From a virus (Duplodnaviria; Caudoviricetes), in IMG/VR virus record IMGVR_UViG_3300013119_000728, positions 1 to 60,232 of that record: a stretch of DNA of 60,232 nucleotides. One strand, written 5' to 3'. The translations under genes and the position numbers were made by a program. The notes beneath the pieces are model-generated. The model had not been told where the DNA came from. It saw nothing but the letters and a program-made list of their open reading frames with translations, and made no database searches. Shown here in pieces: positions 1,375 through 41,608 of this stretch. The stretch's first letter is position 1. The number at the start of each line of letters is the position of its first letter.

Positions 1375-1725
1375 ATGGAAATCAAAGCAAACACACTTCG
1401 TCAGATCATTCGTGAAGAGCTATCAAAGCTAAATGAGCAACCAGCAGACGGAGCCAATGAGTTCTATTCTGCCAAGGTAGGATTGCTCACCCAACTTATG
1501 GACAATCTAGACGAAGCACATAGCGCACTTGATGCAGTTGCTGAGTTAGCACAGAGCCTCGCAGCACACGAGCAATCAGCCGCTGCAGAAGACGCTGAGT
1601 TTATGGAGCAAATGCTCAAGCTAGAAGATGACTCTGTAAATCATCGTGACAATTCACTTGACCCTGACCTAAGATATGTCAAGGGCGAGCTTGATGCAGT
1701 TCAGGCAATGTTTCACGGGGAATAA
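1375..1725 (+). CDS. acidic hypothetical protein with LRQIIREE leader (putative virion internal protein)
   Basis: N-terminus MEIKANTLRQIIREELSKLNE; GGAGG RBS. Confidence 0.7.
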   Translation: MEIKANTLRQIIREELSKLNEQPADGANEFYSAKVGLLTQLMDNLDEAHSALDAVAELAQSLAAHEQSAAAEDAEFMEQMLKLEDDSVNHRDNSLDPDLRYVKGELDAVQAMFHGE

Positions 1726-1731
1726 GAGAAA

Positions 1732-2349
1732 GTGAAAACAACACTCAGCAACCTTAGGCAGATCATTCGCGAGGAGCTCACACGAGTTCTGGCTGAAGCT
1801 GATAGTGACGGTGACGGTGAACTTAGCCCTGATGAACTCAGGGACTTGGCAGACAAGCTCGACAACGACACGGTTGATATCGTTGATGTAGAAACCGGCG
1901 AGGTGCTTTACATCGGCGCCGGCACTCAAAGAGGTATACCTGCTGCCAAAGCCGATGAGTTTATCGAAAAGCTTAGGCTGTCCGTCATCGTCGACGACAA
2001 AGACGGAACTGAACGAAGCATCGAGCTGAGCAAGGCCGATTTTGAAAAGCTTGAGGCGCACATCGATGATGTCTATGACAGACCCGAAAGAGAAAAGGCC
2101 GCTGCTGCCCGCAAAGCAGAGGAAGAACGGCTGGATCCCAGAAGGCTCAAAGACGAACTCAGTCGAAGAGCAAAGATCGCCGGCGAAGAATACATGGCGG
2201 ACAATCCAGATGCAAGCCTTGAGGATGTAGCTTTAGATCTGGCTGCCTCGGTTCTATACTCATTTGAACAGGATGAGCAAGAAGAGCTTCGATACGCCTT
2301 TGACGACGACGAATATCAGCTTAACTTGTACGCAGCAGAAAGCATGTAG
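1732..2349 (+). CDS. acidic protein with LRQIIREE leader and EF-hand-like loop
   Basis: MKTTLSNLRQIIREELTRVLAE followed by DSDGDGELSPDE. Confidence 0.7.
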   Translation: MKTTLSNLRQIIREELTRVLAEADSDGDGELSPDELRDLADKLDNDTVDIVDVETGEVLYIGAGTQRGIPAAKADEFIEKLRLSVIVDDKDGTERSIELSKADFEKLEAHIDDVYDRPEREKAAAARKAEEERLDPRRLKDELSRRAKIAGEEYMADNPDASLEDVALDLAASVLYSFEQDEQEELRYAFDDDEYQLNLYAAESM

Positions 2350-2357
2350 AAAATAAC

Positions 2358-2822
2358 ATGAAGATCACAAAAAGCAGACTACAACAGATCATTCAGGAAG
2401 AGCTCAAGAGAGTTTTGACTGAGAGCAGCGACTGGCACAGTGATGAACATGAAACGCTGGCTGATCGTAAATTTGCTGACAGAGATTGGGCACCACCCGA
2501 GGCTGATCTACCCGAAGATATCAAAGATGCCATAAGAAATTCAGCGGCAAATCTTATTCATGATCCTATTCATTCCAGATCAACGCCGGCTGACATAGCT
2601 GTCCAAGCCCTGCTCCATGTCAGGATCCCGCCTGATATGGGTGAGGAAGCCCTAGCTTTCGCTAATGATTTCATTCAAGATAGCTTCGAAGATGAGCCCG
2701 AAGAAGAGATGCACCCAGACGAGATTGCTGCACAAGAATTCGACCGCAAGGCATTCGGCAAGAATTCAGGTAGTGATAAGAAAATTCGATTCACAGCAAA
2801 AGACGTATTCCTCGACAAATAA
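2358..2822 (+). CDS. acidic hypothetical protein with LQQIIQEE leader
   Basis: MKITKSRLQQIIQEELKRVLTE. Confidence 0.7.
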   Translation: MKITKSRLQQIIQEELKRVLTESSDWHSDEHETLADRKFADRDWAPPEADLPEDIKDAIRNSAANLIHDPIHSRSTPADIAVQALLHVRIPPDMGEEALAFANDFIQDSFEDEPEEEMHPDEIAAQEFDRKAFGKNSGSDKKIRFTAKDVFLDK

Positions 2823-2826
2823 TCAG

Positions 2827-2855
2827 GTGTAAACCCCTCGAACCCGCAGTATAAT
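2827..2855 (+). promoter_or_regulatory. early-type promoter GTGTAAA-N16-TATAAT
   Basis: Matches a motif repeated more than 25 times in intergenic positions. Confidence 0.7.
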
Positions 2856-4052: not shown

Positions 4053-4943
4053 ATGACCAAGATTCTGACAAAAGATATGCAATGGCTATATGATCAGGTG
4101 CCCGACGCCGAGGGTGTTCTTGCTCAATTCCAGCCATTTTTTGACCACGGCGCATTTTTAGCAGGAGGCTTTCTTCGTACTGCAATTACAGAGGGGTCTG
4201 CAGTCAAGGCGTTCGATCGGACCCACAGGCCAGGTGACATGGACTTCTTCTTCAGATCACCAGAGCACGCTGAACGCTTTACAAAGAAAATCCGGGATGA
4301 TCGTGTCAATCTTGGGCGAGTTTCACTTCATCCCTATCATACAAAGCAATGGGCTTCCGGGCCGAACTCAATGATGAAGTATGCTTACGATGCTTCATTT
4401 ACCCTTGCCGATCACTCCGGGATGATGCAATTGATCCACAAGTTCGGCGGAACCCCAAGCCAAATCCTCCAGAGCTTTGATATCGCCAACTGCAAGATCG
4501 CCACTGACGGCAAACAGATCTATATCCGCGAAGGCTGGGAGAAGCTAGAAGAAGATAAGCTGATCCACATCGACGACTACCAGGATCTTGTTCCGTGGCG
4601 AGTTATCAAGTACATAAACAAAGGTGCAACGAAAGACAAGCCTTCACCCTACAGTCTCTCAGACGACTCAAAGGTTGGGATCCTCGAGCACGTCATGTCT
4701 AAGATGTCATCAGGTCAGTGGGGCAAGCTAATCAATCCTTTGCAAAGGGTCAAGGCACTCCTTACACACTCAAAGCAGTTAATCAAGACCGAGGACGTCC
4801 TGTTCTTCATGAACAAGCTGGGAACCGTCATGATAAGCGAGGCAGGTCCCGGATCTGACCCGTATGACGTGATTGAGAGAAGGATGAAGACAAAGGACTT
4901 TGCTATTCACACTTATGAGCAACGAAAGAAGAAAGAGAAATGA
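4053..4943 (+). CDS. nucleotidyltransferase-fold protein (polyA polymerase/CCA head-like)
   Basis: FLAGGFLR...GDMDFFF and FDIANCKIA motifs; promoter at 4008-4036. Confidence 0.65.
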   Translation: MTKILTKDMQWLYDQVPDAEGVLAQFQPFFDHGAFLAGGFLRTAITEGSAVKAFDRTHRPGDMDFFFRSPEHAERFTKKIRDDRVNLGRVSLHPYHTKQWASGPNSMMKYAYDASFTLADHSGMMQLIHKFGGTPSQILQSFDIANCKIATDGKQIYIREGWEKLEEDKLIHIDDYQDLVPWRVIKYINKGATKDKPSPYSLSDDSKVGILEHVMSKMSSGQWGKLINPLQRVKALLTHSKQLIKTEDVLFFMNKLGTVMISEAGPGSDPYDVIERRMKTKDFAIHTYEQRKKKEK

Positions 4944-5167
4944 AGCTGTTCAGCGCTGGAACATTGGTCTGGTATTCATCTCTATTCTGGCTCGGCGATG
5001 AGTTGCCTCAAAAAGCCGTGATAACTAAATCCGAGTCAGCCGATCACATAGAGATTCTTGTAAATGAAAAGATTGTCGTATGCATTCAAGACGAGCTAGC
5101 ACCCGTCAATGACAAGAACATAGATGATCACAACTGGATTCATGAGTGGGGCCAACCTGAAGCATGA
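4940..5167 (+). CDS. small SH3-like hypothetical protein
   Basis: FSAGTLVW; translationally coupled. Confidence 0.45.
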   Translation: MKLFSAGTLVWYSSLFWLGDELPQKAVITKSESADHIEILVNEKIVVCIQDELAPVNDKNIDDHNWIHEWGQPEA

Positions 5168-5439
5168 AGAAGGTGTATGTAAAAGATCTGTCAAGAGGTG
5201 AGTGCTATAAATATGTTCCGTATAGCTGGCCCAACAGTCTAGCCAATCTGGTCGAACCGGGCGTTGTCCAGTACGTTGGATCGTATAAGCACGCATACAA
5301 AGACGGAAGCAAGTGGAAGAAGCATAGATTTTTATGGATAAAAAAGCCTGAAAAGTTGCAGCATGGTTACAGCTACGAAGGAAAAGCAACCATCGAACTT
5401 TACGGTGACAATATTCGCGGATGTCTGAGATTCATGTGA
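5164..5439 (+). CDS. hypothetical protein
   Basis: Coupled ORF within the operon. Confidence 0.5.
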   Translation: MKKVYVKDLSRGECYKYVPYSWPNSLANLVEPGVVQYVGSYKHAYKDGSKWKKHRFLWIKKPEKLQHGYSYEGKATIELYGDNIRGCLRFM

Positions 5440-5609
5440 TCAAAAAGGGTGACCTAATCAGAGTCCGCACAGAAATCAGTTCATTCCCTGACGACAAAGG
5501 TATCGTCCTCGCAGTAGACGAAGATGATGCCGGGACACTGCGATACAAAGTTCTTCTTAAGAATGAAATGTGGTGGGTGCATCAAGATGAAATAGAAGCT
5601 ATAGCCTAA
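5436..5609 (+). CDS. small SH3/KOW-like protein
   Basis: IKKGDLIRV...GIVL...YKVLL; GTG start assumed. Confidence 0.5.
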   Translation: MIKKGDLIRVRTEISSFPDDKGIVLAVDEDDAGTLRYKVLLKNEMWWVHQDEIEAIA

Positions 5610-5818
5610 TGATTGCTGTGAATCCAAAAGTAGCTTTTAAAGAAGGTATGATGATCAAGATCGTCGGAAGCATATTCAAAAACTCTGTAGGCCTTGTTCT
5701 CGAAACACCAAAGTCATTTGATACATTTCTCTGGGTATTCGTTGACAATGAGCCTCAATGGATTCATATTAATGATTGCGAAGCAGCCGAGGAAGACAAT
5801 GGTAAAGCCTACATATGA
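5609..5818 (+). CDS. small KOW-like protein
   Basis: FKEGMMIKIVGSIFKNSVGLV. Confidence 0.5.
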   Translation: MIAVNPKVAFKEGMMIKIVGSIFKNSVGLVLETPKSFDTFLWVFVDNEPQWIHINDCEAAEEDNGKAYI

Positions 5819-6071
5819 TCATCACTCGTGGATAAAAGAAGCTATGCCCGAGTATGATCCTGACAGAGAGTTGAACTTGAAGCCCGGAGATCTGGTGATA
5901 GGAACTGGAACGTCATACCGTATGACAAAAAACCTCAAGGGGTTCATAATTAGAAAGACGCAAGCAAGACGTCCGCACAGAACTGATGTATATCTCGTCA
6001 GGTTCCAGAACGAAGAACCGAAAGAAGTAGATGAGCGATGGCTTCAAAGGATAGAAAATGAAGAAGGGTGA
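5799..6071 (+). CDS. small SH3-like protein
   Basis: LKPGDLVIG...YLVRF; start moved to ATG 5799. Confidence 0.45.
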   Translation: MVKPTYDHHSWIKEAMPEYDPDRELNLKPGDLVIGTGTSYRMTKNLKGFIIRKTQARRPHRTDVYLVRFQNEEPKEVDERWLQRIENEEG

Positions 6072-6255
6072 CATGGTCCGGTTCCGAACTGTAATCAATC
6101 ACCGCGCTGAGGAGCTGTCTGAGTGGAAATACGGTGTTGTCGTCAAGGAGTATGAATCCTGGGAGAAGATCGTTTCTATTCTCCACGCCGGCACAGTCGT
6201 AAGAATCAAGGCAGCTCATGTTCAAATCCACCAGCGTGGCCCGGAAAAAAGGTAG
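6058..6255 (+). CDS. small SH3-like protein
   Basis: MKKGDMVRF...GVVV. Confidence 0.5.
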   Translation: MKKGDMVRFRTVINHRAEELSEWKYGVVVKEYESWEKIVSILHAGTVVRIKAAHVQIHQRGPEKR

Positions 6256-6290
6256 CTCTGTCTAATATATATTATTATTAGGGGCAGATC

Positions 6291-6503
6291 ATGATTAAAA
6301 TAACTGCAAAACAACTCCGCGAGCTAATAAGAGAAGTTGCTAAACGTCGACCCGATGGTTGGTTGCCTTCAACTGCTAAGAACCTTCACTTAGACAAGAA
6401 GTTTAAGTCCGCCGGCGGATGGCCTGAAGGTGAGTATGACCCGCCTGTCAATGTCAGAATCAGCAACTATCTCAAGTCCCTCGGCCTTTTAGACGAAGAT
6501 TAA
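6291..6503 (+). CDS. small protein with LRELIRE leader
   Basis: MIKITAKQLRELIREV; AT-rich late-like motif upstream. Confidence 0.65.
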   Translation: MIKITAKQLRELIREVAKRRPDGWLPSTAKNLHLDKKFKSAGGWPEGEYDPPVNVRISNYLKSLGLLDED

Positions 6504-6735
6504 AAATATAGAGCTCTGCATAGTTATACTATACACGGAGGTAATATATGAAGAGTGATGATGTCACAAAGATACAAGAAGTACATGATAAAAGATTAAG
6601 TAGATTTGCAAAGATCAAAGGGGAGCTTACGCTGCTTATGATCTTGTGTCGCAAGTTAATCACATTTAAAATGCCGTGGCAATACTATTTTCTCGGTGCA
6701 ATGCTATGGGCTGACGGAATGTTGGCAGGCTGGTT

Positions 6736-7161
6736 ATGCTCAAACCCTTTTTAATAACGGGGGTAGGTATTCTACTGGCTGCTTGTATTTTTGCAGCGTC
6801 TAGACAACAAACACACCAGTTCAAGGCTGTAATTACCGGACATGATAATACATGGGTCAATAATTACGCACATGCTAGAATCTCTATGATCCCGGAAAAG
6901 GGTTGGTTCATTAAGCCCGAAGCACCAGTAAAGATATCCATCAAACACACTCAGAATATTGAGCTTAGCCAGACAGAACTTACGATCAAAGACGTGCGCT
7001 GGGGTAAAAAAGTAAAGTCAGCAAACTTTGACATACTAATCAAAGGTAAGAAGGTTGGCATAGCAGAGATTGATGCTGATCTCGTATTCTCTACATGCAA
7101 TAAAAGTGTCTGTATAGAAAATACCGGGCGCCTAACGAAGACCATAATAGTAAAGCCATGA
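6736..7161 (+). CDS. secreted beta-sandwich protein with C-terminal CxxxxC (DsbD-N-like)
   Basis: Signal-like N-terminus, GW..KPEAPVKI, FSTCNKSVC. Confidence 0.5.
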   Translation: MLKPFLITGVGILLAACIFAASRQQTHQFKAVITGHDNTWVNNYAHARISMIPEKGWFIKPEAPVKISIKHTQNIELSQTELTIKDVRWGKKVKSANFDILIKGKKVGIAEIDADLVFSTCNKSVCIENTGRLTKTIIVKP

Positions 7162-7382
7162 AATACAATCCCGGCGACATGGTTATAATAAAAGAATGTT
7201 CAGACTATACAGCAAGTTCAAAAAGCTGGACGTGGAAAGATAAGTCTGGAATTGTTATTAACTGCTTAGATCCACTTGTAATGGCAATTGCTGATGCAGG
7301 AACTGGCGGATACGACTACCAGATCTTCCTCGCCGGAGAACTTGTTTATTTCCACGAGGATGAATTAATCAGGGTAGGATAG
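7158..7382 (+). CDS. small SH3-like protein
   Basis: YNPGDMVIIK...FHEDEL. Confidence 0.5.
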   Translation: MKYNPGDMVIIKECSDYTASSKSWTWKDKSGIVINCLDPLVMAIADAGTGGYDYQIFLAGELVYFHEDELIRVG

Positions 7383-7388: not shown

Positions 7389-8405
7389 GTGAAGAACTAT
7401 TACGATATCTTGGGTGTAAAGAAAGATGCTACTCAAGCACAAATCAAAAAGTCATATAGAAACCTGGCTAAGAGATATCACCCAGACACTTCAAAAGAGA
7501 CAAACGCAGAAGAGCTGTTCAAAGAAGTCGCTGAAGCATACACAGTCTTAGGCGATAAGGACAAAAGAAAATCATACGATAATCCTGCACCAAAAGGGTT
7601 CCCGCCTCCAGGTCCAGGCTTCGGTGATTTCTTTAGCCAGTTTACGGGCGGGTTTGAAGATTTATTCACAAGTCGCCGAGGCTACAAGCAGAACCCAAAG
7701 CCTACAAATCTTCGCTATCGACTTAATATCGATTTCTTCGCAGCAGCGATAGGAAAAGTAATCGATCTAAAGGTTGAGCGTATGGTGCCATGCAAGACAT
7801 GCGATGGGTCAGGAAGCACAGACAAGACTGTCAAGGCTGTATGCAAGAAGTGTCACGGGCAAGGTAACACTACTTTTTTGCAAGGCTTCTTCCAGATGAC
7901 ACGAACATGTGAGGAATGCAATGGTAAAGGCACAAATATAACGAATCCATGCAATTCATGTCTGGGCAAGGGCTTGAAAAACACACACGAGTCTATCAAG
8001 GTCAACATCCCAGCAGGAGTCGAAAATAACAACGTAATCAAAGTCAAGGGATACGGACATCAAAATGTAAAAGGCTCACCTCCTGGCGATCTTTTTCTAG
8101 AAGTAAGAGTAGGTGAGCATGGTAACTTCAAGCGGGTGGGAAACGATATTCATACCAGCGTTGTTATTTCTATACCTGAATCAATATTGGGTTGCCGAAG
8201 AGAGATTGAAACGGTCGCCGGCCCGGCCAAGCGATTAGTAATTCCTGACTGCACCAAGCCCGGAGACACGATTCGTCTCAAAGGTGAAGGTGTCAACGGC
8301 GGCGATCACGTTGTCACAATAAGGGTAACATTTCCCAGAACCCTTAGCAAAGAATTAGAAGACGCTTACGAGCAAGTTTATGAAGTTACTCACCCGAAAG
8401 GATAA
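7389..8405 (+). CDS. dnaJ: molecular chaperone DnaJ
   Basis: J domain with HPD, G/F-rich linker, four CxxCxGxG zinc-finger repeats, C-terminal domain. Confidence 0.95.
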   Translation: MKNYYDILGVKKDATQAQIKKSYRNLAKRYHPDTSKETNAEELFKEVAEAYTVLGDKDKRKSYDNPAPKGFPPPGPGFGDFFSQFTGGFEDLFTSRRGYKQNPKPTNLRYRLNIDFFAAAIGKVIDLKVERMVPCKTCDGSGSTDKTVKAVCKKCHGQGNTTFLQGFFQMTRTCEECNGKGTNITNPCNSCLGKGLKNTHESIKVNIPAGVENNNVIKVKGYGHQNVKGSPPGDLFLEVRVGEHGNFKRVGNDIHTSVVISIPESILGCRREIETVAGPAKRLVIPDCTKPGDTIRLKGEGVNGGDHVVTIRVTFPRTLSKELEDAYEQVYEVTHPKG

Positions 8406-8413
8406 TTATTAAT

Positions 8414-10943: not shown

Positions 10944-11224
10944 TCACCCTCGCTTGACTGACGCTCCACTGTAATAAAAGGCATCTTTATCAATTGTGCT
11001 TTGACTTCTGTGTTAGATGCATTGAAACCTGCAGCAGTAAAAAAGACTTGGTGCTTCATCTTTGGCTTCTGATTTGCTACTGCCCACTCACCTTTAACTA
11101 CATGCCACATCTGTGGAATCTTAGTAATTTTTGGCTGGGTATCAATATCATTTGCCATTGCCGAGAGGCTGGTAGAAAGAACAACTGACCCCATCAAAAG
11201 GACTCTTGTTAAATTCGCAAACAT
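10940..11224 (-). CDS. secreted hypothetical protein
   Basis: Signal peptide ending AMA; ATATTTAT on the minus strand at 11259-11266. Confidence 0.55.
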   Translation of the reverse strand: MFANLTRVLLMGSVVLSTSLSAMANDIDTQPKITKIPQMWHVVKGEWAVANQKPKMKHQVFFTAAGFNASNTEVKAQLIKMPFITVERQSSEGE

Positions 11225-15340: not shown

Positions 15341-16123
15341 ATGAGTAATAATAATGATAATCGCTGGCTAAAGATGGCAGGAGTTTTAAACGAAGCTAAA
15401 GATCCATCTGAAAACCAAGAGGTCAAAACAGTCTTAGCTGAGCAAAAAGTTCGACGAATCATAAGAACACAAATTAAAAAGATTCTTACTGAGGCACGCA
15501 ATCCAACTCGCGAGGATGTTGTAACACTGCAAGCTACGCTAAATACATTAAAGCCAAACTCAGCTAAGCCTGACGGAATTTACGGCAAAGAGACTGCAAA
15601 TGCTATTGCACAATTTCAAAAAGATGCTAATCTTACCGTTGATGGTGTTGCAGGTCCTGAAACTTACGCAGCACTTGCATCTGCACTTGAGGCTGAAGAG
15701 TGGCCGTCAGAAGATGTTATGGGCGCTCTATTGACAGATGGACCGATTATTGGGCGCAAAGGTGTAGCAGATTTATCTCCTGCAGAGGTCGAAATGCCCA
15801 CAATTAACTTAGTTGCCGGCGATAAAGAAAGCGATGCTGCAGTAGCTGATGCTTTACGTATGATAATCGGAGATACCAAAGTTGATGTAGGTATCACAGA
15901 AGAAGATCGTTTGGCCGTCGCCCGCGCAATGGGTCAAGGTGATGATGCAGAAATAGTAAAATCCAGCCCCGAAGAAGTCGAAGTCAAAGTTGGCGGTAAG
16001 CAAGGTCTCGAACCAGTGATAATTAAAATTCATGACAGATCTGGCGCTAGCCTTGATATTGAAGAGCCAACACAATTGTCAGACAAGTTTATGTCTGGTG
16101 ATCTTATGATCAAAATGCCGTAA
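15341..16123 (+). CDS. peptidoglycan-binding domain protein
   Basis: DVVTLQATLN...DGIYGKETANAIAQFQ...LTVDGVAGPET; internal tag VRRIIRTQIKKILTE. Confidence 0.8.
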   Translation: MSNNNDNRWLKMAGVLNEAKDPSENQEVKTVLAEQKVRRIIRTQIKKILTEARNPTREDVVTLQATLNTLKPNSAKPDGIYGKETANAIAQFQKDANLTVDGVAGPETYAALASALEAEEWPSEDVMGALLTDGPIIGRKGVADLSPAEVEMPTINLVAGDKESDAAVADALRMIIGDTKVDVGITEEDRLAVARAMGQGDDAEIVKSSPEEVEVKVGGKQGLEPVIIKIHDRSGASLDIEEPTQLSDKFMSGDLMIKMP

Positions 16124-16425: not shown

Positions 16426-16712
16426 TCGCAGCGTTAGCATCCATGATATCAATGGATACGTGGCCGCTTTATGATGACGAAAGAAAAAAAGCGCTTCTTA
16501 AGCTTCGGCATTGGTATAAAGCGACGCTTGACTGGGCAAAGATTTACGAGGATGACAATCATTCACTTCGAACTCGAAACCTCCTGGAAGACATAGAGAG
16601 AGTTGCCAGAGATATCGGCGAAGAAGACTCAGGTTGGCAATGGTATGATGACTGGGATGATGAGATGAATGCAATTTGGGCAACAATGAAACGAATGGGT
16701 GTCATAGAATGA
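16422..16712 (+). CDS. hypothetical protein
   Basis: Coupled ORF, W/D-rich. Confidence 0.55.
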   Translation: MIAALASMISMDTWPLYDDERKKALLKLRHWYKATLDWAKIYEDDNHSLRTRNLLEDIERVARDIGEEDSGWQWYDDWDDEMNAIWATMKRMGVIE

Positions 16713-17134
16713 AAATCACTCTGGGTAGCTTGAAAAAGATAATTAAAGAGCATGCTCAGCCCGCATTACTTTCACATCAAATTATCACTGTCGAAGGTCA
16801 TAAGATTGATTGCGAGATTGCAAATACTGACGCAGCAAGAATGCAAGGCCTCATGCATCGAACTGATCTTCCGCAAGACACGGGTATGCTCTTCGTATTC
16901 CCATGGGCAGACCAGCAATCATTTTGGATGCGGGACACACACATTCCTCTCGACGTAGCATTTGCTGACATCCATGGCAAGATACTGAATATTGAGACAG
17001 GAAACCCGCTGTCTGAGAAGAAGATGCTATCACAAGGCCCGGCCATGTATGTGCTTGAAGCACCCAAAGGGTGGTTTAGTCTTCACGATCTCGGAGAAGG
17101 ATCTGTAATAGACTTAAATAGCATTAACATTTAA
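16709..17134 (+). CDS. DUF192 domain protein with LKKIIKE leader
   Basis: GLMHR...GMLFVF...FWMRDTHIPLDVAF...YVLE; ATG 16709 gives MKITLGSLKKIIKE. Confidence 0.85.
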   Translation: MKITLGSLKKIIKEHAQPALLSHQIITVEGHKIDCEIANTDAARMQGLMHRTDLPQDTGMLFVFPWADQQSFWMRDTHIPLDVAFADIHGKILNIETGNPLSEKKMLSQGPAMYVLEAPKGWFSLHDLGEGSVIDLNSINI

Positions 17135-17602: not shown

Positions 17603-18529
17603 ATGAAAATGTCAGGCAAGATCTTAAGAAAGATTATTAACGAAGAGATCCAGCTCCTTAGTGAGGCAAAATATAATCCTACACATGACGATGTCAAAAC
17701 TTTACAGTCTGCAATTAATTTTATTGTCGATGTTGATAATGACGAAGACATAGATCTAGATAATCTAGAAAAAGATTTAAAAGACGTGCTCAATGTTGAT
17801 GGAATCTTTGGAAGAAATACAGATAGAGAGCTTAGAAAAGCGCAAAGTCAATTAGGAGTAAAGCCCGACGGTTTGGCCGGCCCAAAGACAATGATAAAAA
17901 TGTCAGAAGCTATTAATGAGTTTATTCTTGAAATTGAGAATGAAGCTGCTGGAGATTTCGCAGAAGAGGAATTCGGGCCGATCGCAGATGATTTGAAGCG
18001 CTTAATAGATTTACGAGCAGTAATGGGAATGTCAAGAGGCAAGCCCAAAAAGAAAAAATCTAAACCTGAACCAGAAGAAAAAGAAATGTCTGTCGGGGGT
18101 AAAGATAGCGAAGCAGAATCTAGCGTGAATGCACGAGGCTATGATATCAGCAAAGGCCCAATTAAAAGAAATAGTAAACAAAGTCACGTAGACTATCTCA
18201 ATAAAGAAGGAATCAAAAAAGCAGTTCTTGATGGAATCAATTATTTGTTTTTAAACAATAAAATAAAAAACAAAGACATGGCAATGCATGTTTTGTCAAC
18301 ACTTCCGAAAAAGTCAAAAAAAGAAGGAAGAATATCTGAGCTCCATGCGACACTTCTAGATGTTGCTGAAGCCCGCGGAATCAAGCTTATAAATCACTAT
18401 AATCGACTTCTTAAAGGCTATAAAGGAATTCTCCAGCGAACTAATAAAGACAATAGAGATAACATGAAAGCGAAGCTCGAGAAAAGAATTGGCGCCGGAG
18501 CAAAAGAATTTAAAAAAGCCTTAAGCTAG
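17603..18529 (+). CDS. peptidoglycan-binding domain protein with LRKIINEE leader
   Basis: VDGIFGRNT...LGVKPDGLAGPKT; N-terminus MKMSGKILRKIINEEIQLLSE. Confidence 0.75.
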   Translation: MKMSGKILRKIINEEIQLLSEAKYNPTHDDVKTLQSAINFIVDVDNDEDIDLDNLEKDLKDVLNVDGIFGRNTDRELRKAQSQLGVKPDGLAGPKTMIKMSEAINEFILEIENEAAGDFAEEEFGPIADDLKRLIDLRAVMGMSRGKPKKKKSKPEPEEKEMSVGGKDSEAESSVNARGYDISKGPIKRNSKQSHVDYLNKEGIKKAVLDGINYLFLNNKIKNKDMAMHVLSTLPKKSKKEGRISELHATLLDVAEARGIKLINHYNRLLKGYKGILQRTNKDNRDNMKAKLEKRIGAGAKEFKKALS

Positions 18530-18540: not shown

Positions 18541-20013
18541 ATGAATACAACACTTCGAAACATAGTTCAAAATGAAATTAAACAATTGCTGTCAGAACAA
18601 GATGAGAAATCTGTATCAAAAAAACGAAAGCTAAAATCTGAAGATTCCCGCATTATGTCTGCCGATCGCGGCCCATTTCGTGACAAGATGAAAGGTGACC
18701 CGTTTGAATATACAATTGTCGGAGATCCATGCGATGATCCCGAGGGTATAAAGTTTAAAGTAACGGGATTTTCTAAGCTCGCAAAAAGAAAGTTTCGCAA
18801 TAAGTGGAAGAAGATAACCGCCGGCCAAAGACAAAGAACACTAGAAAAAGATAAATACATCTGGAAAAGAGGAAAGCTCAAAGGGCAAGATTCCTGGGAG
18901 ATTCTTCGAAAGACACTCGGCGGTGCAGATTTAATTTGCCAGCGGGTAACTGAAGCTGAGAAGAAGCATGAGAAGAAATCTAAGCTAGACTTTACAGATC
19001 AAGAGCCGATGCAAGACCCAACAATTAGAGGTAAGAAGAAGGCCAAAAAAGACGGAATAGGCGGTAAAGATCAAAAGATTGATAACACGTTTCCTCGAGG
19101 ATCACTTCGATACTATATTAAAAATAATACCACGGGAATTGACCCGAAGGTTAAAAAATATATAAAGAGCTTCGCTGAAAACGATGATACAAAGTCGCTG
19201 TTTAGAGATGCAGTTAAAAAAATCATATCAAAACAATATGACAAAGAAATCTACAAGCCGATCAATATGGGCTATAGCTTTATGCAGTTATCTGATGATC
19301 CCATTTCGGGAGCGTCAGCTCGTCTGGATGCAGCACTAAAACTAATTTTTAATAAATCTCTTCCTCGAGAAATTCAAATGCGGGCTCTAGACTTATCTGA
19401 AAGAATATATGATAAGCTAGGCTCATGGGAAAAGGTCGATGATCTAGCAAAGAAAGAATCAGATATATTGGCATCTGAGCTTAAGATGCCGTATTTCGGA
19501 ACTGTATCAGATGCTAAGACTAAAAAAGAAGAAGAACCCGAAGTTGTTAAAAAAGAAAAAGAGATAGCTAAAGAGCCCGCAGCAAAGAAGAAATTAAAAT
19601 ATCCGCAAGGCAATCTCATGAATAAAGAGTTTGATATTGAGGGTATGAAAATGAAAGTTACTGAAGATCGATTAATTCTAGACGGAAAGCCTTACAAGGC
19701 CACAGTATTCGGATCTAATATGAGCTTTAATAATATGAGCTTTAAAAAAATCGTTGGTAAACCAGACTCTATTGAAATAACCGGTTCTGCTTTGTTTAAA
19801 ACAGTCACAACAAATATTACATGGGCCGACCTCATACAGAATGCCAAAGATCTCAGAGGTAAAAACAAAACAACTATATCGACCCCGGGAAATCCTGACA
19901 TAAAAATTACACCCGCTTCTTCTGCTGTTAGTGAATCCCGCCAAGTTACACCAGCCCAGCTAAACCAAATAATACTCAGAGAAATGAAAAGAATCCAAAA
20001 TGAAAATAGATGA
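18541..20013 (+). CDS. Lys-rich protein tagged at both termini (putative virion protein)
   Basis: MNTTLRNIVQNEIKQLLSE and C-terminal VSESRQVTPAQLNQIILREM. Confidence 0.65.
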   Translation: MNTTLRNIVQNEIKQLLSEQDEKSVSKKRKLKSEDSRIMSADRGPFRDKMKGDPFEYTIVGDPCDDPEGIKFKVTGFSKLAKRKFRNKWKKITAGQRQRTLEKDKYIWKRGKLKGQDSWEILRKTLGGADLICQRVTEAEKKHEKKSKLDFTDQEPMQDPTIRGKKKAKKDGIGGKDQKIDNTFPRGSLRYYIKNNTTGIDPKVKKYIKSFAENDDTKSLFRDAVKKIISKQYDKEIYKPINMGYSFMQLSDDPISGASARLDAALKLIFNKSLPREIQMRALDLSERIYDKLGSWEKVDDLAKKESDILASELKMPYFGTVSDAKTKKEEEPEVVKKEKEIAKEPAAKKKLKYPQGNLMNKEFDIEGMKMKVTEDRLILDGKPYKATVFGSNMSFNNMSFKKIVGKPDSIEITGSALFKTVTTNITWADLIQNAKDLRGKNKTTISTPGNPDIKITPASSAVSESRQVTPAQLNQIILREMKRIQNENR

Positions 20014-20164
20014 AAAACTAAGGCAGGCAATAATCGCAGAGGTCACAAAGAAGGTCCAAGAGATCCTACCCGTAATCATCAAAGAGATTGTGCAAAAGCA
20101 GGTCGATGACACAGTAGATGATCACTATGCACTGCACTTCGACGACGGTAACGATTATTATTAA
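20000..20164 (+). CDS. 54-aa protein with tag-like N-terminus (below the ORF-track cutoff)
   Basis: MKIDEKLRQAIIAEVTKKVQE... Confidence 0.5.
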   Translation: MKIDEKLRQAIIAEVTKKVQEILPVIIKEIVQKQVDDTVDDHYALHFDDGNDYY

Positions 20165-31948: not shown

Positions 31949-31961
31949 ATATGGGTATTTA

Positions 31962-32255
31962 GTGATGCCGCCAATTATTACAAGAAGACATATTCGTTAC
32001 AAGGGAACGAAGACATTCAAAGAATCAGCTCAAAGACAGCTGTCTAGGTTTAGAGATAAAATTAATGAAGCGTGTAAAGACGATCCTTCATTCTGGAATC
32101 CTCGTATTAAGAATCTAATGGAAGATATTGATGATCTTAATTGGGATGTAGACAAACTAAGCGATACAGAATTATGGCCATCAGATTTCACTGAAAGATT
32201 CAAAAATATTAATGATACTATAAAAAGACTGGGAATTAACGTAGGCTTAATATAG
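31962..32255 (+). CDS. DP...NPRIKNL..DI paralog 3
   Basis: Shared motif and TIKRLGI end. Confidence 0.6.
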   Translation: MMPPIITRRHIRYKGTKTFKESAQRQLSRFRDKINEACKDDPSFWNPRIKNLMEDIDDLNWDVDKLSDTELWPSDFTERFKNINDTIKRLGINVGLI

Positions 32256-37415: not shown

Positions 37416-37799
37416 ATGCAAACAACAAACAAGCAATTACGTCAGATCATTCGTGAAGAGATCGAAAAGGTAATCAACGAAGACAATCAGGCGGGTGTTC
37501 AAGTATTCCCGTTCAATAGTCCTATCGAAATGGTAAAACTTATAACAGACCTTGTCCACAATCAGGGTCTTGAGGCAAGAACCTCGCCACAAATGAATGG
37601 CACAAATGTTGTTGTCATCGCATCAAGTGATTCAAAATTGCTAGATGATTATGTAGCTCGTGCATCTGCTCTTCGTGCAGAGAAGACACCGCCTCGCCCA
37701 GAGCATCAACCTGCTCCTGTGGCACCAGATGAACACTGGGTAGATCGTGAAAATCGCAAAGCTCGCCAACGTGGCAAAAACGTATCAGCTTGGTCTTGA
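37416..37799 (+). CDS. protein with LRQIIREE leader
   Basis: MQTTNKQLRQIIREEIEKVINE; ATACTTAT upstream. Confidence 0.7.
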   Translation: MQTTNKQLRQIIREEIEKVINEDNQAGVQVFPFNSPIEMVKLITDLVHNQGLEARTSPQMNGTNVVVIASSDSKLLDDYVARASALRAEKTPPRPEHQPAPVAPDEHWVDRENRKARQRGKNVSAWS

Positions 37800-39041: not shown

Positions 39042-39127
39042 GTTTGATTATACCAAAATGTGTTGTAAATTTAAACTACAATTGAGTATTATTACTTGTT
39101 ATCATCTTGCATAGCAGAAGGAGAGGC

Positions 39128-39643
39128 ATGAGATGGGCGCAGACATCCACGGGTTTCTGGGAAGTGAAGCAACCATCTGGAAAGTGGGTTGCTTTCCGTG
39201 ATATCCCAACCAACCGAGACTACACGTGGTTCCGCATTATTGCAGGTGTCAGAGGTTACGGAGACAATACGTTTCATCACCACCGCGGCATGCCAGCGGA
39301 TTCGTCTGATTGCTGGAAGGACTACGTTGGAAATGATGATCTCCACTCGCACACATGGCTAACCCCGGATGAGGTACTAGATTGCTTTGAGGAATGGCTA
39401 GAAGCTGTCAAACGCGATTATAATGAGTTGCCAGATGATGCCCCGAAATCTCGATCAAAGATGTGTGTCTTCCCGGAGGAGCCCATTAAACGCCTCCTCT
39501 TCAGGTATTTCTGGGATGACACAGTCGGCCAGTGGGGTGATCGTGCTTACAAATCAATTCCGTGGGTAGGCACATTAAAAGACCTGATAGGGGATCAAGA
39601 TTTTGAACAGTCAGTCCGCATGGTGATTGCGTTTGATAGCTAG
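39128..39643 (+). CDS. phage hypothetical protein (MGxDIH-type family; N-terminus out of frame)
   Basis: RDYTWF..IAGVRG, RGMPAD, HSHTWLT, RMVIAFDS. Confidence 0.7.
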   Translation: MRWAQTSTGFWEVKQPSGKWVAFRDIPTNRDYTWFRIIAGVRGYGDNTFHHHRGMPADSSDCWKDYVGNDDLHSHTWLTPDEVLDCFEEWLEAVKRDYNELPDDAPKSRSKMCVFPEEPIKRLLFRYFWDDTVGQWGDRAYKSIPWVGTLKDLIGDQDFEQSVRMVIAFDS

Positions 39644-39851
39644 ATGACCAAGAAGAAATTCAAAGAGGGCGACCTCATTACGATGGAATCCAAGTGGCTA
39701 CCAAAGTCGGGTGTCATTATATCATTTGCCCACTATGCTCCACTAGCAAGGGCTCACGCGCAAGGAAACAGAACACCCTGCTGGAATGTCTTGTGTGACA
39801 CCGGAAACAAGTTTATAGTCGGAGAAGCATATATGAGATTGGTGCAGAGAA

Positions 39852-40217
39852 ATGAAACAATTAATTAGTCTAGCATTGCTATTATGCGCATGCCCTGAAG
39901 AAGTAGCACATGTGACACCAGATCAATCATATTCAGGTCAATGGCTGCAGCTTGATCAATACTTCCCGGAGAGCTGCTTCATTCTTGACGAGGATACAAA
40001 AACGGTATGGGTATTTGACGATGGGGATGAAGAACAAGAACACAAGGATGATTGGCTTTGGGAGTTCAACCAGCAAGATCGCTATACATTTGATGACAGC
40101 ATCGATCTATACGTAGCTGAGACTGAGAATGACTGCTGGCGAATGTCTATCTGGGGAGTCGATGTCAATGCATGCCCGTGCTCATATGCAATCCCTCCGC
40201 AACCACCCGAAGAATAA
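39852..40217 (+). CDS. putative lipoprotein
   Basis: LLLCAC lipobox-like signal. Confidence 0.5.
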   Translation: MKQLISLALLLCACPEEVAHVTPDQSYSGQWLQLDQYFPESCFILDEDTKTVWVFDDGDEEQEHKDDWLWEFNQQDRYTFDDSIDLYVAETENDCWRMSIWGVDVNACPCSYAIPPQPPEE

Positions 40218-40267
40218 GATAAATCTCACGAATAAATATATTTATAACGTAAGCTTGGATAGACTAT

Positions 40268-41608
40268 ATGAACCACAGCAGAATACTTGAAGTAGCTGAG
40301 CAAATTGTTCTCTTGCAAGAGGGCGGCAATGCCAAAGCAATTGATATCGAGACTGGAGAAGTAAAGCAATTCAATGGCCGGCCGGCCAATGCTGAGCAGA
40401 TTCCATTGCGCAAGATTGACATTGCAAAGTTCACTGCTACATTCCGCAAACTCTTCTTCAGGCTTGATGATATGTTCATGTCACGGTTTGATCGTGGCCT
40501 CTGGCCAGAACGTAAGGCTTTCGAAGACGGCATGAATTCTGGTTCGTGGTTCTCGGGCTCGTCATCTGTAATGTTCGACCCGAAGGTAAAAGGTAAAGAC
40601 ATATCTGACGTCAAAGAAGAAGCAGGCGACATTGACGTTCAAATGCCACTCACCAACATTCCCGACCTGTTTGTATTCCTTCACGAGATTGAAGGGCAAG
40701 AGATCCTGCCGGGAGTCACATACATCGGAAACAATGACAAGACCGCTCAGGCAGCAGCCGATCAGATTCATGGAGTCTTTGCTTATGACGCAGGGTTAGA
40801 AAATCCAATCTTCGTCCAGATTGATTTTGAAGGCGTTGATTTTGAGGATGACCAACCAGAGGAGTTCGTCCAGTTTGGCCGATCGTCATCATTCTCAGAT
40901 ATGAAGCAGGGCCTAAAAGGTGTTGCGCACAAGTTCTTGCTCATGAACCTTGCTCGTGCATCGTCACAGCGCCCAGGAATGAAGGTTGCAAAGGGCTCTG
41001 CGACAATTGAAAAGCTATCACAAAACCTCGAGAAGCAACTATCAAAATCAAAGAAGTATAAAAGCCCATCAACATTGGCATTCTCAGTTCGCAAAGGAAT
41101 GAGAGACAAGTTTGAAAAGTTTGCCACAATCGGTGAAGAAGAGATCTATAAGGCACTGACATCGGCAAACTCAACATACACAACCGCAGTGGCTGCCATC
41201 TTTGAGAGATTCTTCGGCAAGCAACCAACTGAACAAGAATTTGATATGTTCTGGTCGTATACAGGCGCACTTAAGCTCATTAATGATATCCTCGGCCCGC
41301 AGGTATTAAAAGATACAATGAAGCTCATGATCGACAAGAGCTTGTATGGCCCATTCGAATCACAGATGCTATACAACAACGACCGTGAACGTGACGAGAA
41401 GACAAAGATGCGCATGATTACTGCTGCTGTAGAACTATTTCCGCATCTAAGTGAGGTTGTTGCTGACCTCGATGAGAAGAAAGAAGCATATTATGACAGA
41501 AAGATTGAGAAGGATGAGCCCGAAGAAGAGCTCAAGACATTCGAACCTGTAGCAGAATCCACCCAGCTTCTCCGCAAGCTCATAAAAGAAATGATAATCA
41601 ACCGATAG
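40268..41608 (+). CDS. nucleotidyltransferase-fold protein with C-terminal tag
   Basis: FSGSS...GDIDV...VQIDFE; ends VAESTQLLRKLIKEMII; ATATTTAT at 40238. Confidence 0.65.
   Translation: MNHSRILEVAEQIVLLQEGGNAKAIDIETGEVKQFNGRPANAEQIPLRKIDIAKFTATFRKLFFRLDDMFMSRFDRGLWPERKAFEDGMNSGSWFSGSSSVMFDPKVKGKDISDVKEEAGDIDVQMPLTNIPDLFVFLHEIEGQEILPGVTYIGNNDKTAQAAADQIHGVFAYDAGLENPIFVQIDFEGVDFEDDQPEEFVQFGRSSSFSDMKQGLKGVAHKFLLMNLARASSQRPGMKVAKGSATIEKLSQNLEKQLSKSKKYKSPSTLAFSVRKGMRDKFEKFATIGEEEIYKALTSANSTYTTAVAAIFERFFGKQPTEQEFDMFWSYTGALKLINDILGPQVLKDTMKLMIDKSLYGPFESQMLYNNDRERDEKTKMRMITAAVELFPHLSEVVADLDEKKEAYYDRKIEKDEPEEELKTFEPVAESTQLLRKLIKEMIINR

What the first reader, a model, noticed from the sequence alone, without database searches (positions are those of the whole stretch)
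1375..41608. Portable LRxIIxEE...(L/I)xE peptide tag on about 11 unrelated proteins: candidate capsid-targeting/maturation signal
Seen: the same amphipathic peptide starts otherwise unrelated proteins at 1375 (TLRQIIREELSKLNE), 1732 (NLRQIIREELTRVLAE), 2358 (RLQQIIQEELKRVLTE), 6291 (QLRELIREV), 16709 (SLKKIIKE), 17603 (ILRKIINEEIQLLSE), 18541 (TLRNIVQNEIKQLLSE), 20000 (KLRQAIIAEV) and 37416 (QLRQIIREEIEKVINE). It also sits internally in 15341 (VLAEQKVRRIIRTQIKKILTE) and at the C-termini of 18541 (VSE..AQLNQIILREM) and 40268 (VAESTQLLRKLIKEM). In most cases an (L/I/V)xE site separates tag from cargo. Cargoes include PG-binding domains, DUF192, a nucleotidyltransferase and an EF-hand. Established: T4 internal proteins carry a short capsid-targeting sequence removed by prohead protease gp21 after (L/I)xE. 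Inference: this is a position-independent addressing tag that loads cargo into the head for ejection.
Basis: partly seen in the sequence, partly recalled or inferred. Interest (0 to 1): 0.88.

Follow-up and report, generated by a model that had tools for sequence, protein, structure and literature searches.

The report
Shared N-terminal tag on phage proteins
A fragment of a very large uncultured phage puts the same roughly 20-residue helical peptide at the start of several unrelated proteins, and related phages place genes with this tag beside their T4-type head protease, so it probably loads proteins into the assembling head.

Summary
A profile built only from other viral contigs finds five window proteins well above chance (starts 1375, 1732, 2358, 17603, 37416). 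One is borderline (6291) and one suggestive (18541). The other four are not separable from chance: 16709, 20000, the internal copy in 15341, and both C-terminal copies.

The tag is widespread. At least 2,447 protein clusters in a 1.84-billion-protein library carry it, about 90% within the first residues. Its core L-R-Q-I-I-R-E-E always holds an I-x-E, and a second (L/I/V)-x-E usually ends it. Cargoes are almost all unknown and unrelated.

The window has no head genes; CheckV rates it 17% complete. All six near-complete genomes with canonical tags encode a T4 gp21-type protease. In 8 of 18 protease-bearing records a tagged gene starts within 1 kb of that gene (0.63 expected).

Best reading (about 0.6): a new sequence class of T4-style capsid-targeting propeptide in a clade related to Flavobacterium phage immuto and Rhodothermus phage RM378 (here: the immuto/RM378 clade). 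Position independence is not supported. Packaging, cleavage and ejection are untested.

The parts
1375..1725 (+). 116-aa protein. Canonical tag in residues 1-21 (nt 1375-1437): 7-residue leader, LRQIIREE core, closing LNE. Cargo has no known family.
   Evidence: Window-independent profiles: E 1.2e-11, i-E 2e-8, E 1.6e-7.
1732..2349 (+). 205-aa protein with a GTG start. Canonical tag in residues 1-22 (nt 1732-1797), closing LAE. An acidic cargo with a weak EF-hand-like loop follows directly.
   Evidence: Profile i-E 3e-6. EF-hand_1 20.9 bits against a cut-off of 25.4.
2358..2822 (+). 154-aa protein. Tag in residues 1-22 (nt 2358-2423): MKIT leader, LQQIIQEE core, closing LTE. Third gene of the 1375-2822 tagged array, whose genes are separated by 6-8 nt.
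   Evidence: Profile i-E 5e-6. No Pfam or PHROG family.
6291..6503 (+). 70-aa protein with a shortened tag-like start (nt 6291-6344, LRELIRE). It has no second (L/I/V)xE.
   Evidence: Borderline profile i-E 0.011.
15341..16123 (+). 260-aa PG_binding_1 protein. A degenerate tag (VRRIIRTQIKKILTE, nt 15431-15493) lies behind a ~30-residue N-terminal extension. Paralog of 17603.
   Evidence: PG_binding_1 2e-18. Cargo matches 17603 at E 1e-6. Not detected by the tag profile.
16709..17134 (+). 141-aa DUF192 protein that starts MKIT...LKKIIKE. It has the leader and the first half of the core only.
   Evidence: DUF192 4.5e-29. Profile i-E 3.4, within noise.
17603..18529 (+). 308-aa protein. Tag in residues 1-21 (nt 17603-17665, LRKIINEE, closing LSE), then a PG_binding_1 domain and a lysine-rich tail.
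   Evidence: Profile i-E 1.2e-3. PG_binding_1 5.8e-7.
18541..20013 (+). 490-aa lysine-rich protein. Divergent tag-like start (nt 18541-18597, LRNIVQNE, closing LSE). A tag-like C-terminal stretch (QLNQIILREM, nt 19957-19986) follows VSE.
   Evidence: N-terminal i-E 0.18, a value reached by 3 of 20 shuffles. The C-terminal copy is not detected.
20000..20164 (+). 54-aa ORF that overlaps the end of 18541 and starts MKIDEKLRQAIIAE. The resemblance is weak.
   Evidence: Loose regex only. Not detected by the profile.
37416..37799 (+). 127-aa protein. Canonical tag in residues 1-22 (nt 37416-37481): LRQIIREE core, closing INE. Cargo unknown.
   Evidence: E 8e-11, 1.7e-10, i-E 2e-7. A single-sequence AlphaFold2 model (AF2) puts residues 5-26 in a helix but is low-confidence (pLDDT 57.6).
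40268..41608 (+). 446-aa protein with a nucleotidyltransferase-type GSS...GDID motif. After a disordered linker that holds VAE, it ends in an amphipathic helix (QLLRKLIKEMIINR, nt 41564-41605). Its homolog lies directly downstream of the major capsid gene in the distant relatives G001 and G002.
   Evidence: AF2 pLDDT 80.6, residues 414-430 disordered, helix 428-445. Fold match to DNA polymerase lambda is weak. Tag-profile i-E 0.83, not significant.

Best explanation
The tag is a short N-terminal propeptide that works like the capsid-targeting sequence (CTS) of phage T4 internal proteins, in a different sequence class.

Anatomy. The tag has three parts:
- a 5- or 7-residue leader (MKKSE or MKITxxQ);
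- an amphipathic helix with the core L-R-Q-I-I-R-E-E;
- usually a closing (L/I/V)-x-E.

Proposed mechanism:
1. The helix docks the protein onto the scaffolding core while the prohead assembles. This step is inferred.
2. A T4 gp21-type prohead protease (Pfam Peptidase_S77, here S77) cuts after the glutamate of I-(R/K)-E and/or the closing (L/I/V)-x-E, which frees the cargo inside the head. This step is inferred from motif and context.
3. At least some cargo then leaves with the DNA at infection. This step is inferred by analogy only.

Where the window fits. The window is about one sixth of a roughly 350-kb phage and carries such genes in two arrays plus singletons. The tagged peptidoglycan-binding proteins beside an M23 peptidase would suit ejected cell-wall-acting proteins.

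Shown: the tag is real and selected at the protein level. It is N-terminal, sits on unrelated cargo, is widespread, and is genomically tied to the T4-type head module.

Not shown: packaging, cleavage and ejection.
For: 1. Protein-level module.
- Among 111 distinct exact copies, all 6 Leu codons, all 6 Arg codons and all 3 Ile codons are used.
- Cargoes fall into 119 clusters with no shared sequence. Each of the 6 Pfam families found matches only 1 of the 119.

2. Fixed N-terminal register.
- In 182 of 230 distinct copies a Met lies exactly 5 or 7 residues before the core.
- 226 of 250 profile hits are N-terminal.
- 136 of the best 150 of 2,447 library hits begin at residue 13 or earlier.

3. 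Cleavage-type motifs.
- I-(R/K)-E is in the core in 229 of 230 copies.
- A second [LIV]xE ends at core position 14 or 15 in 121 of 230 and at position 12 in 25 of 230.
- Any single later position carries it in only 1-9 of 230.
- Conservation stops at that point.

4. Protease co-occurrence.
- S77 (PF03420) is present in 18 of 43 tag-bearing records of 30 kb or more.
- It is present in all six near-complete genomes with canonical tags: G003, G004, G005, G020, G039, G040.

5. Adjacency.
- In 8 of 18 S77 records a profile-significant tag starts within 1 kb of the protease gene on the same strand. Chance expects 0.63 (Poisson P 3.5e-7).
- G020, G037, G038 and G041 have whole arrays flanking the protease gene.
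- G040 has two tagged genes between protease and scaffold.
- The 484-kb phage LR756508.1 has six or seven tandem genes with tag-type starts 8-10 kb upstream of gp22/gp23; two of them reach the profile threshold.
- G003 has three tagged genes directly before the large terminase gene.

6. Protease specificity is likely kept. The site that aligns with T4 gp23's LTE cleavage site reads VSE, VVE, LRE or ISE in six capsid proteins of the clade.

7. Possible polyprotein. A 941-aa ORF beside the protease in G020 holds 11 [LIVM]NE where 0.86 is expected, plus two internal tag copies.

8. Link to the window.
- G001 and G002 are distant relatives. They share 7 proteins with the window at 23-45% identity and are about half complete at 152-172 kb.
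- Both carry the same kind of tag arrays and a full large terminase/portal/S77/gp22/gp23 head module.

9. Established background, read as passages.
- T4 internal proteins have 10-19-residue N-terminal CTS propeptides, removed by gp21, that suffice to package foreign proteins (PMC9026906).
- Diverse T-even internal proteins share only a conserved CTS (PMC3012670).
- T4's own ip genes lie among tRNA and non-structural genes. The window's non-structural neighbourhood is therefore no argument against this reading.
Against: - No direct evidence of virion presence or processing exists for any tagged protein. No cultured phage with the tag has a published virion proteome that my searches found (for phage immuto).
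- The window has no S77 match and no head gene. The link runs through relatives that are only 23-45% identical.
- There is no sequence similarity to the T4 CTS. The profile finds 0 matches in the T4 genome and none in IPI, IPII or IPIII.
- Tag-like N-termini also occur in complete 34-64-kb genomes without S77 (G017, G021, G019, G023). One such family is an 80-aa protein with a C-terminal transmembrane helix next to lysis genes. That does not suit an internal head protein.
- In complete genomes many tags lie far from the head module: 30-75 kb away in G039, and about 100 kb away in G001 and G002.
- In the window the same TATAATA promoter-like element precedes tagged genes and the ligase and ATPase genes, so there is no sign of late-specific expression.
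- Two huge phages with related capsid or ATPase genes (LR756504.1, LR756511.1) and Microcystis phage Mel-JY01 have no profile match.
Confidence: 0.6

Rival explanations
1. The tag is a general-purpose N-terminal amphipathic helix unrelated to the capsid. It might serve oligomerisation, or docking onto a membrane, a chaperone or a host target. It would mark a pool of small host-takeover or accessory proteins. Its nearness to head genes in some phages would reflect where such hypervariable gene arrays tend to accumulate.
For: - Tag-like starts occur in small complete phages without S77, including a membrane-anchored protein in a lysis cassette.
- Many tags lie far from the head module.
- The window's tagged genes share a promoter-like element with the ligase and ATPase genes.
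- Cargoes are dark matter, as early or accessory genes typically are.
Against: - Adjacency to the prohead protease gene in 8 of 18 records against 0.63 expected.
- All six near-complete genomes with canonical tags have S77.
- The sharp end of conservation at an (L/I/V)xE is not needed for a plain oligomerisation helix.
- The strict distance from the initiator Met suggests a free N-terminus is recognised or removed.
Confidence: 0.22
2. The tagged proteins are structural parts of the prohead core itself, scaffold-like proteins degraded at maturation as T4 gp67, gp68 and gp22 are. They would not be cargo kept in the head for delivery. The tag would be a core co-assembly helix and the variable parts mere filler.
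For: - Tagged or tag-like small proteins occupy the gp67/gp68 positions between portal, protease and scaffold in G040, G020, G005, G003, G001 and G002.
- The 941-aa ORF rich in [LIVM]NE looks made to be cut into pieces.
Against: - Cargoes with folded domains (PG_binding_1, DUF192, an NTase-motif protein) and 119 unrelated cargo clusters are hard to see as filler.
- Arrays far from the head module resemble T-even internal-protein loci more than core genes.
Confidence: 0.1
3. The shared start is only the slowly decaying remnant of tandem gene duplication. In this view the tag is one fast-evolving paralog family whose N-terminus is conserved for no targeting reason, or else a nucleic-acid element such as a translation-initiation region.
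For: - Tagged genes are often tandem (window 1375-2822; seven in a row in L046; eight in G002).
- In multi-tag library proteins the internal copies mostly keep their own Met, as expected if adjacent tagged genes were called as one.
Against: - Synonymous codons vary freely while the residues stay fixed, so the constraint is on the peptide.
- The same 8-residue core is kept across phages whose capsid proteins are only 37-59% identical. Meanwhile everything after core position 15 is unalignable.
Confidence: 0.05

Closest known systems
Capsid-targeting sequence (CTS) of phage T4 internal proteins IPI, IPII, IPIII and Alt, removed by the prohead protease gp21
   Same: - A short N-terminal leader on otherwise unrelated proteins.
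- It starts MK and ends in I/L-x-E. T4 IPII and IPIII read MK....IAE over 10 residues. The tag reads MKKSE-LRQIIRE over 12 residues, often with a second LxE by about residue 20.
- It is found only with a gp21-type protease in near-complete genomes with canonical tags.
- The genes sit in variable arrays that can lie among tRNA and non-structural genes.
   Different: - No detectable sequence similarity: 0 profile matches in T4.
- About twice as long.
- Predicted to be a regular amphipathic helix.
- Found in the immuto/RM378 clade, whose capsid proteins are only about 26% identical to those of classical T4-type phages. The clade includes genomes of 150-480 kb.
- Function is untested here.
Variable internal-protein loci of T-even phages: diverse defence-countering proteins that share only a CTS (PMC3012670, passages; PMC9026906, passages)
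   Same: Tandem arrays of small, mutually unrelated ORFs that each open with the same leader (window 1375-2822; L046, G002, G020, LR756508.1).
   Different: - The scale is far larger: at least 2,447 clusters at 50% identity.
- No cargo has a demonstrated anti-restriction role.
Long N-terminal propeptides of head and ejection proteins in phiKZ/SPN3US-type giant phages, cut at (A/S/G)-x-E (PMC5694885, passages)
   Same: - A gp21-related protease cuts after Glu.
- The propeptides are proposed to target proteins into the prohead.
- Paralogs have conserved N-termini.
   Different: - Those propeptides are mostly over 100 residues and are not one portable consensus.
- The residue two places before the cut is small there, not L/I/V.
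Encapsulin cargo-loading peptides and the capsid-targeting signals of phage P1 Dar proteins (P1: search listing only; encapsulins: recalled, apart from one abstract line)
   Same: A short terminal peptide is enough to address unrelated cargo to the inside of an HK97-fold shell.
   Different: - Different sequences.
- Encapsulin peptides are usually C-terminal and are not removed.
- No protease link.

Membership tests
T4-type capsid-targeting propeptide (CTS) | Short N-terminal leader shared by otherwise unrelated proteins of one phage | tested here: met
   - Five window proteins pass a window-independent profile.
- Their cargoes are unrelated except the 15341/17603 pair.
- 226 of 250 hits elsewhere are N-terminal.
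T4-type capsid-targeting propeptide (CTS) | Leader ends at the protease's cleavage motif (L/I-x-E, cut after Glu) | tested here: met
   - I-(R/K)-E is in 229 of 230 copies.
- A second [LIV]xE ends at core position 12, 14 or 15 in 146 of 230.
- It is present in 7 of the 11 listed window proteins.
- This shows the motif only; no cleavage was observed.
T4-type capsid-targeting propeptide (CTS) | The same genome encodes a gp21-type prohead protease (Peptidase_S77) | tested here: inconclusive
   - 0 matches in the window, which is 17% complete.
- Present in the distant relatives G001 and G002.
- Present in all six near-complete genomes with canonical tags.
- Absent from six complete small genomes that hold single tag-like matches.
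T4-type capsid-targeting propeptide (CTS) | Sequence similarity to the T4 CTS | tested here: not met
   - The profile finds 0 matches in NC_000866 at E <= 0.01.
- It finds none at the N-termini of IPI, IPII or IPIII.
- It finds none of note in gp67, gp68, gp21, gp22 or gp23.
T4-type capsid-targeting propeptide (CTS) | The leader is necessary and sufficient for packaging into the prohead and is removed during maturation | not testable with these tools
   This needs virion proteomics and fusion experiments. The in-silico docking attempt gave no verdict (see Tried and rejected).
Immuto/RM378 clade of T4-related phages (the lineage proposed for the window's phage) | A gp23-type capsid protein, gp20-type portal, gp21-type protease and gp22-type scaffold in one module | tested here: inconclusive
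   - None of these lies in the window.
- The window shares 7 proteins at 23-45% identity, and local gene order, with G001 and G002, which have the module.
- The capsid proteins of tag-bearing genomes are 37-59% identical to each other and to phage immuto, and about 26% identical to classical T4-type phages.

The most novel reading that the evidence does not exclude
The LRQIIREE tag is a sequence-defined address label for the packaged, and probably ejected, proteome of a whole clade of mostly uncultured aquatic T4-related phages, including genomes of 350-480 kb. If so, thousands of dark-matter proteins (at least 2,447 clusters) can be read directly from sequence as head-internal cargo. A second label, the scaffold's own C-terminal RMQKLAGI motif reused at the N-terminus of small proteins, would show that these phages address cargo by copying short terminal motifs of their core proteins.
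Probability: 0.45. Interest if true: 0.8.

Novelty: new variant of a known kind. Interest (0 to 1): 0.68.

Why it matters
T4's capsid-targeting sequence is the only well-worked example of a short peptide that loads arbitrary proteins into a phage head, and it is known from a narrow group of coliphages.

A second, unrelated and much more widespread consensus would have several uses:
- It would give a sequence handle for listing the proteins that uncultured phages, huge phages included, carry into the cell with their DNA. That is where anti-defence and early takeover functions are expected.
- It would offer a new packaging tag for phage engineering in Bacteroidota-type hosts.
- It would make the question 'what does the CTS bind?' comparative, because the tag also sits on conserved head-module proteins.

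I found no paper that prints the motif or links a CTS to uncultured phages.

Tried and rejected
- Close relatives of the window. Megablast of 25 kb against the phage collection found nothing. A pattern search for relatives of the 446-aa protein in IMG/VR found nothing. Only distant relatives (G001, G002) came from the tag scan.
- tblastn of a 27-aa tag piece against phage isolates found nothing. At that length even a perfect match could not pass the E-value limit, so this says nothing.
- tblastn of the 80-aa head-module tagged protein of G040 found nothing.
- A word-index search with residues 1-40 of the 37416 protein returned only the protein itself. The index needs several shared 5-mers, so this is uninformative.
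- PHROG scans of ten head-module proteins of G039 and G040 gave no family.
- T4-type late promoter TATAAATA: 3 hits on the + strand and 4 on the - strand of the window, none before a tagged gene. The recurrent TATAATA element does not separate tagged genes from replication genes. G001 shows no shared upstream motif. Expression timing stays open.
- Tag-like segments inside the gp22 scaffolds gave only weak hits. The idea that the tag copies a gp22 segment is not supported. A different motif, RMQKLAGI, is shared with the scaffold's C-terminus.
- In-silico docking of the G040 tagged 80-aa protein against its gp22 scaffold (collected) returned 'no answer' (score 0.00, mark 0.32; the controls were not run). 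It counts neither for nor against binding.
- The single-sequence fold of the 37416 protein was low-confidence (pLDDT 57.6). It shows only a nominal helix over residues 5-26.

Full report
THE WINDOW. The 60,232-bp window is the whole held assembly. It is almost entirely + strand coding. It holds:
- 14 tRNA genes;
- a sigma-70-type factor, an ATP-dependent DNA ligase and a methyltransferase;
- an M23 peptidase, a trypsin-like protease and purine-salvage enzymes.

It has no recognisable virion gene. CheckV's estimate, as shown by the tool, is 17% complete. That implies a genome of about 350 kb. No near relative exists among deposited phages. The best protein hit of its AAA ATPase is a 636-kb uncultured phage at 27% identity.

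THE OBSERVATION. A strict pattern for the core finds five copies in the six-frame translation. All five are on the + strand and lie 6-14 residues after a start codon. A loose pattern adds four more and nothing in any wrong frame.

To judge chance without circularity I took the tag from elsewhere. From those stretches I built a profile and iterated it with the window left out. Against the window's 868 six-frame pieces it gives these i-E values:
- 1375: 2e-8
- 37416: 2e-7
- 1732: 3e-6
- 2358: 5e-6
- 17603: 1e-3
- 6291: 0.011
- 18541: 0.18
- C-terminus of 40268: 0.83
- first unrelated hit: 1.5
- 16709: 3.4

The start of 20000, the internal element of 15341 and the C-terminus of 18541 are not detected. 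The best hit on reversed sequences is 9.7. None of 20 shuffles falls below 0.01, and 3 of 20 fall below 0.35. An independent 40-sequence alignment (A1) run through the genome-search tool again finds four window copies.

So five copies are certain, one or two are likely, and the rest are resemblances. The element in 15341 is a decayed tag by paralogy with 17603. With tags cut off, only those two proteins resemble each other. 'Unrelated cargo' therefore holds.

Cargo names:
- PG_binding_1 (15341, 17603) and DUF192 (16709) are solid.
- The EF-hand in 1732 is below Pfam's cut-offs.
- The 446-aa protein has an invariant GSS...GDID nucleotidyltransferase-type motif. Its fold match to DNA polymerase lambda is only weak.

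ANATOMY OF THE TAG. The following counts come from 230 distinct copies outside the window.
- A Met lies exactly 5 residues (112 copies) or 7 residues (70 copies) before the first Leu. The two leader types are MKKSE and MKITxxQ; the window uses the 7-residue type.
- The core is L(96%) R(90%) Q(75%) I(83%) I(97%) R/K(97%) E(99%) E(97%). Next come a hydrophobic residue, two variable ones and two hydrophobic ones, then Glu at position 14 or 15.
- After position 15 the composition is that of unrelated sequence.
- I-(R/K)-E is therefore built into 229 of 230 copies.
- A second [LIV]xE ends at position 14 or 15 in 121 copies and at position 12 in 25. Any single later position carries it in only 1-9 copies.

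All synonymous codons of Leu, Arg and Ile are used among 111 exact copies. The constraint is therefore on the peptide, not the nucleic acid.

Of 250 distinct profile hits, 226 are N-terminal, 22 are scored internal and 2 are C-terminal. Several of the 'internal' ones are merely 8-10 residues from the Met. The tag is therefore not position-independent.

A profile search of 1.84 billion cluster representatives gives 2,447 proteins at E <= 0.001. Of the best 150, 136 start at residue 13 or earlier. In the seven multi-tag proteins I fetched, most internal copies keep their own Met, so they look like adjacent tagged genes called as one.

Among tagged ORFs of 90 aa or more, I counted 119 cargo clusters with no shared sequence. 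Pfam recognises six families, each in one member only.

WHERE THE TAG LIVES. Pfam Peptidase_S77, the T4 gp21 prohead protease family (S77), is found in 5 of 5 large tag-bearing contigs. It is found in 13 of 38 further records of 30 kb or more.

The records that lack it fall into two groups. Seventeen are fragments rated 2-54% complete. Eight are records rated 80% complete or more:
- Three hold an 80-aa membrane-protein family next to lysis genes: G009, G017, G021.
- Two are proviruses sharing one family: G023, G042.
- Two hold internal matches that may be chance: G014, G024.
- One is G019.

All six near-complete genomes with canonical tags have S77 (G003, G004, G005, G020, G039, G040). Where I checked, they also have a gp23-type capsid protein and a gp20-type portal.

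Their capsid proteins are 37-59% identical to each other and to three other sequences: Flavobacterium phage immuto, Microcystis phage Mel-JY01 and the 484-kb uncultured phage LR756508.1. They are about 40% identical to Rhodothermus phage RM378 and about 26% identical to classical T4-type phages. The tag is thus a trait of this clade. It is not universal within it:
- immuto has 3 profile matches;
- LR756508.1 has 8;
- Mel-JY01 has 0;
- LR756511.1 and LR756504.1 have 0;
- T4 has 0.

LINK TO THE HEAD. In 8 of the 18 S77-bearing records, a profile-significant tag starts within 1 kb of the protease gene on the same strand. The distances are 76-906 bp in G004, G012, G020, G031, G037, G038, G040 and G041. 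Given contig lengths and the number of loci held, chance expects 0.63 (Poisson P 3.5e-7). Short contigs can only show near pairs. G004, G040 and G031 are 140-221 kb, so the result does not rest on short contigs alone.

Examples:
- G040 runs portal, a 289-aa conserved protein, a 247-aa protein with a tag-like start, S77, a tagged 80-aa protein, a 215-aa protein, a tagged 246-aa protein, two small ORFs, gp22, gp23.
- G020 has a tagged gene before S77. After S77 come a 941-aa ORF with two internal tag copies and eight tagged ORFs in a row.
- G041 has tagged genes on both sides of S77.
- LR756508.1 has six or seven tandem genes with tag-type starts 8-10 kb before gp22/gp23.
- G003 has three tagged genes directly before the large terminase gene.

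Against this, many tags lie 17-100 kb from the module. T4's own ip genes also lie far from its head genes, among tRNA genes and beside the lysozyme gene.

DOES THE PROTEASE CUT AT SUCH SITES? T4 gp23 is cut at an LTE. At the aligned position, the six clade capsid proteins in the alignment have VSE, VVE, LRE or ISE. The 941-aa ORF beside S77 in G020 carries 11 [LIVM]NE against 0.86 expected. These mostly occur as ES(V/I)NE at what look like module boundaries. The clade's gp22 scaffolds carry 18-28 [LIVM]xE each. This fits a retained (L/I/V)-x-E specificity. No cleavage was observed.

BACK TO THE WINDOW. G001 (172 kb, 51% complete) and G002 (152 kb, 45% complete) share seven proteins with the window at 23-45% identity.
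- The homologs of the window's 4053, 11300, 13017 and 28895 genes lie in the same 30-kb stretch as their tag arrays.
- Both have the large terminase gene, portal, S77, gp22 and gp23.
- In both, the homolog of the window's 446-aa protein sits directly downstream of gp23.

The 446-aa protein's C-terminal amphipathic helix is kept in the close homologs and in G001 and G002, but not in two other homologs. It follows a disordered linker that holds V/A-x-E. T4 Alt is reported to lose a C-terminal propeptide to gp21 (PMC9026906, passage). A C-terminal version is therefore conceivable, but the profile does not support it here.

MECHANISM AND ODDS. Taken together, the best reading is a CTS-like propeptide:
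- the helix attaches the protein to the assembling core;
- the gp21-type protease releases the cargo by cutting after the tag's Glu;
- the cargo stays in the head.

I put this at about 0.6. Delivery into the host is a further inference by analogy with T4 (PMC9026906, PMC3012670, PMC5694885; passages read). The tagged peptidoglycan-binding proteins next to the M23 peptidase would fit that step well.

The main rival, at about 0.22, is a general amphipathic helix on accessory proteins with no capsid role. It is kept alive by the small phages without S77, the membrane-protein family and the lack of any late-expression signal. A purely structural, degraded-core role (0.1) and a duplication remnant or nucleic-acid element (0.05) are less likely.

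COMPARISON WITH THE KNOWN. The tag works like the T4 CTS in length class, position, MK start, I/L-x-E end, protease partner and arrays of unrelated cargo. It fails the one testable sequence criterion of membership: there is no similarity to the CTS of T4 IPI, IPII or IPIII. I therefore file it as a new variant of a known kind.

No paper in the searchable library prints the motif or ties a CTS to uncultured or marine phages. The library lacks most subscription journals, and supplements were closed.

Noticed in passing
L141 (G040) 15895-17082 and the gp22 genes of G039, G001, G002, G003, G005, LR756508.1, immuto and Mel-JY01; also L067 and L118 (G005): There is a second shared terminal motif. 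All nine gp22 scaffolds of the clade end in (R/K)(M/W)x(K/R/I)LA(G/N/D)(I/L), which T4 gp22 lacks. Several small ORFs of G005 begin with M-x(6-8)-RMQQLAGI followed by ITE or NE (7 N-terminal among 12 regex hits). The motif is absent from the window. It may be a second addressing label copied from the scaffold tail.
   Followed up: partly
L047 (G020) 4536-7361: A 941-aa ORF just downstream of the prohead protease gene carries 11 [LIVM]NE (0.86 expected), mostly as ES(V/I)NE, and two internal copies of the tag. It looks like a polyprotein made to be cut by the protease.
   Followed up: partly
G037 and G038 (loci L094, L097): The S77 protease genes hold 1 and 3 in-frame TGA codons. Neighbouring ORFs are chopped under table 11. 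This suggests TGA is read as a residue in these tag-bearing phages.
   Followed up: no
window, e.g. 311, 1317, 2850, 15303, 22172, 37380, 41634, 43600, 58945: A promoter-like TATAATA(T/A) element lies 10-58 nt upstream of at least 16 + strand genes. It precedes both tagged genes and the ligase and ATPase genes. It may be the target of the window's own sigma factor (33269-34042), but this was not tested.
   Followed up: partly
G017 10958-11203 and G021 14727-14981 (loci L122, L124): Complete 34-kb and 61-kb phages without an S77 protease encode an 80-aa protein. It has a tag-like N-terminus and a C-terminal transmembrane helix, and sits just upstream of holin-like and lysozyme genes. About 20 of the 116 pattern loci belong to this family.
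   Followed up: partly
window 30831-32255: Three tandem small paralogs (95, 98 and 97 aa) share an (N/W)-P/S-R-(I/V)-K-N-L...D-I motif and an RLGI C-terminal end. They lie just after a cluster of tRNA genes.
   Followed up: no
window 57019-57715: Two adjacent paralogs (115 and 128 aa) both carry MSNIDSQLNDAI near their start. The second holds an internal tandem duplication (ENELRLKFEQ twice).
   Followed up: no
window 7389-10482: An unusual auxiliary set: a full-length DnaJ-like protein with a zinc-finger region (7389-8405), a membrane protein (8414-9223) I read as an M50/site-2-type protease from its sequence only, and on the - strand a secreted protein with MopE-type metal-binding repeats plus a VWA domain (9220-10482).
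   Followed up: no
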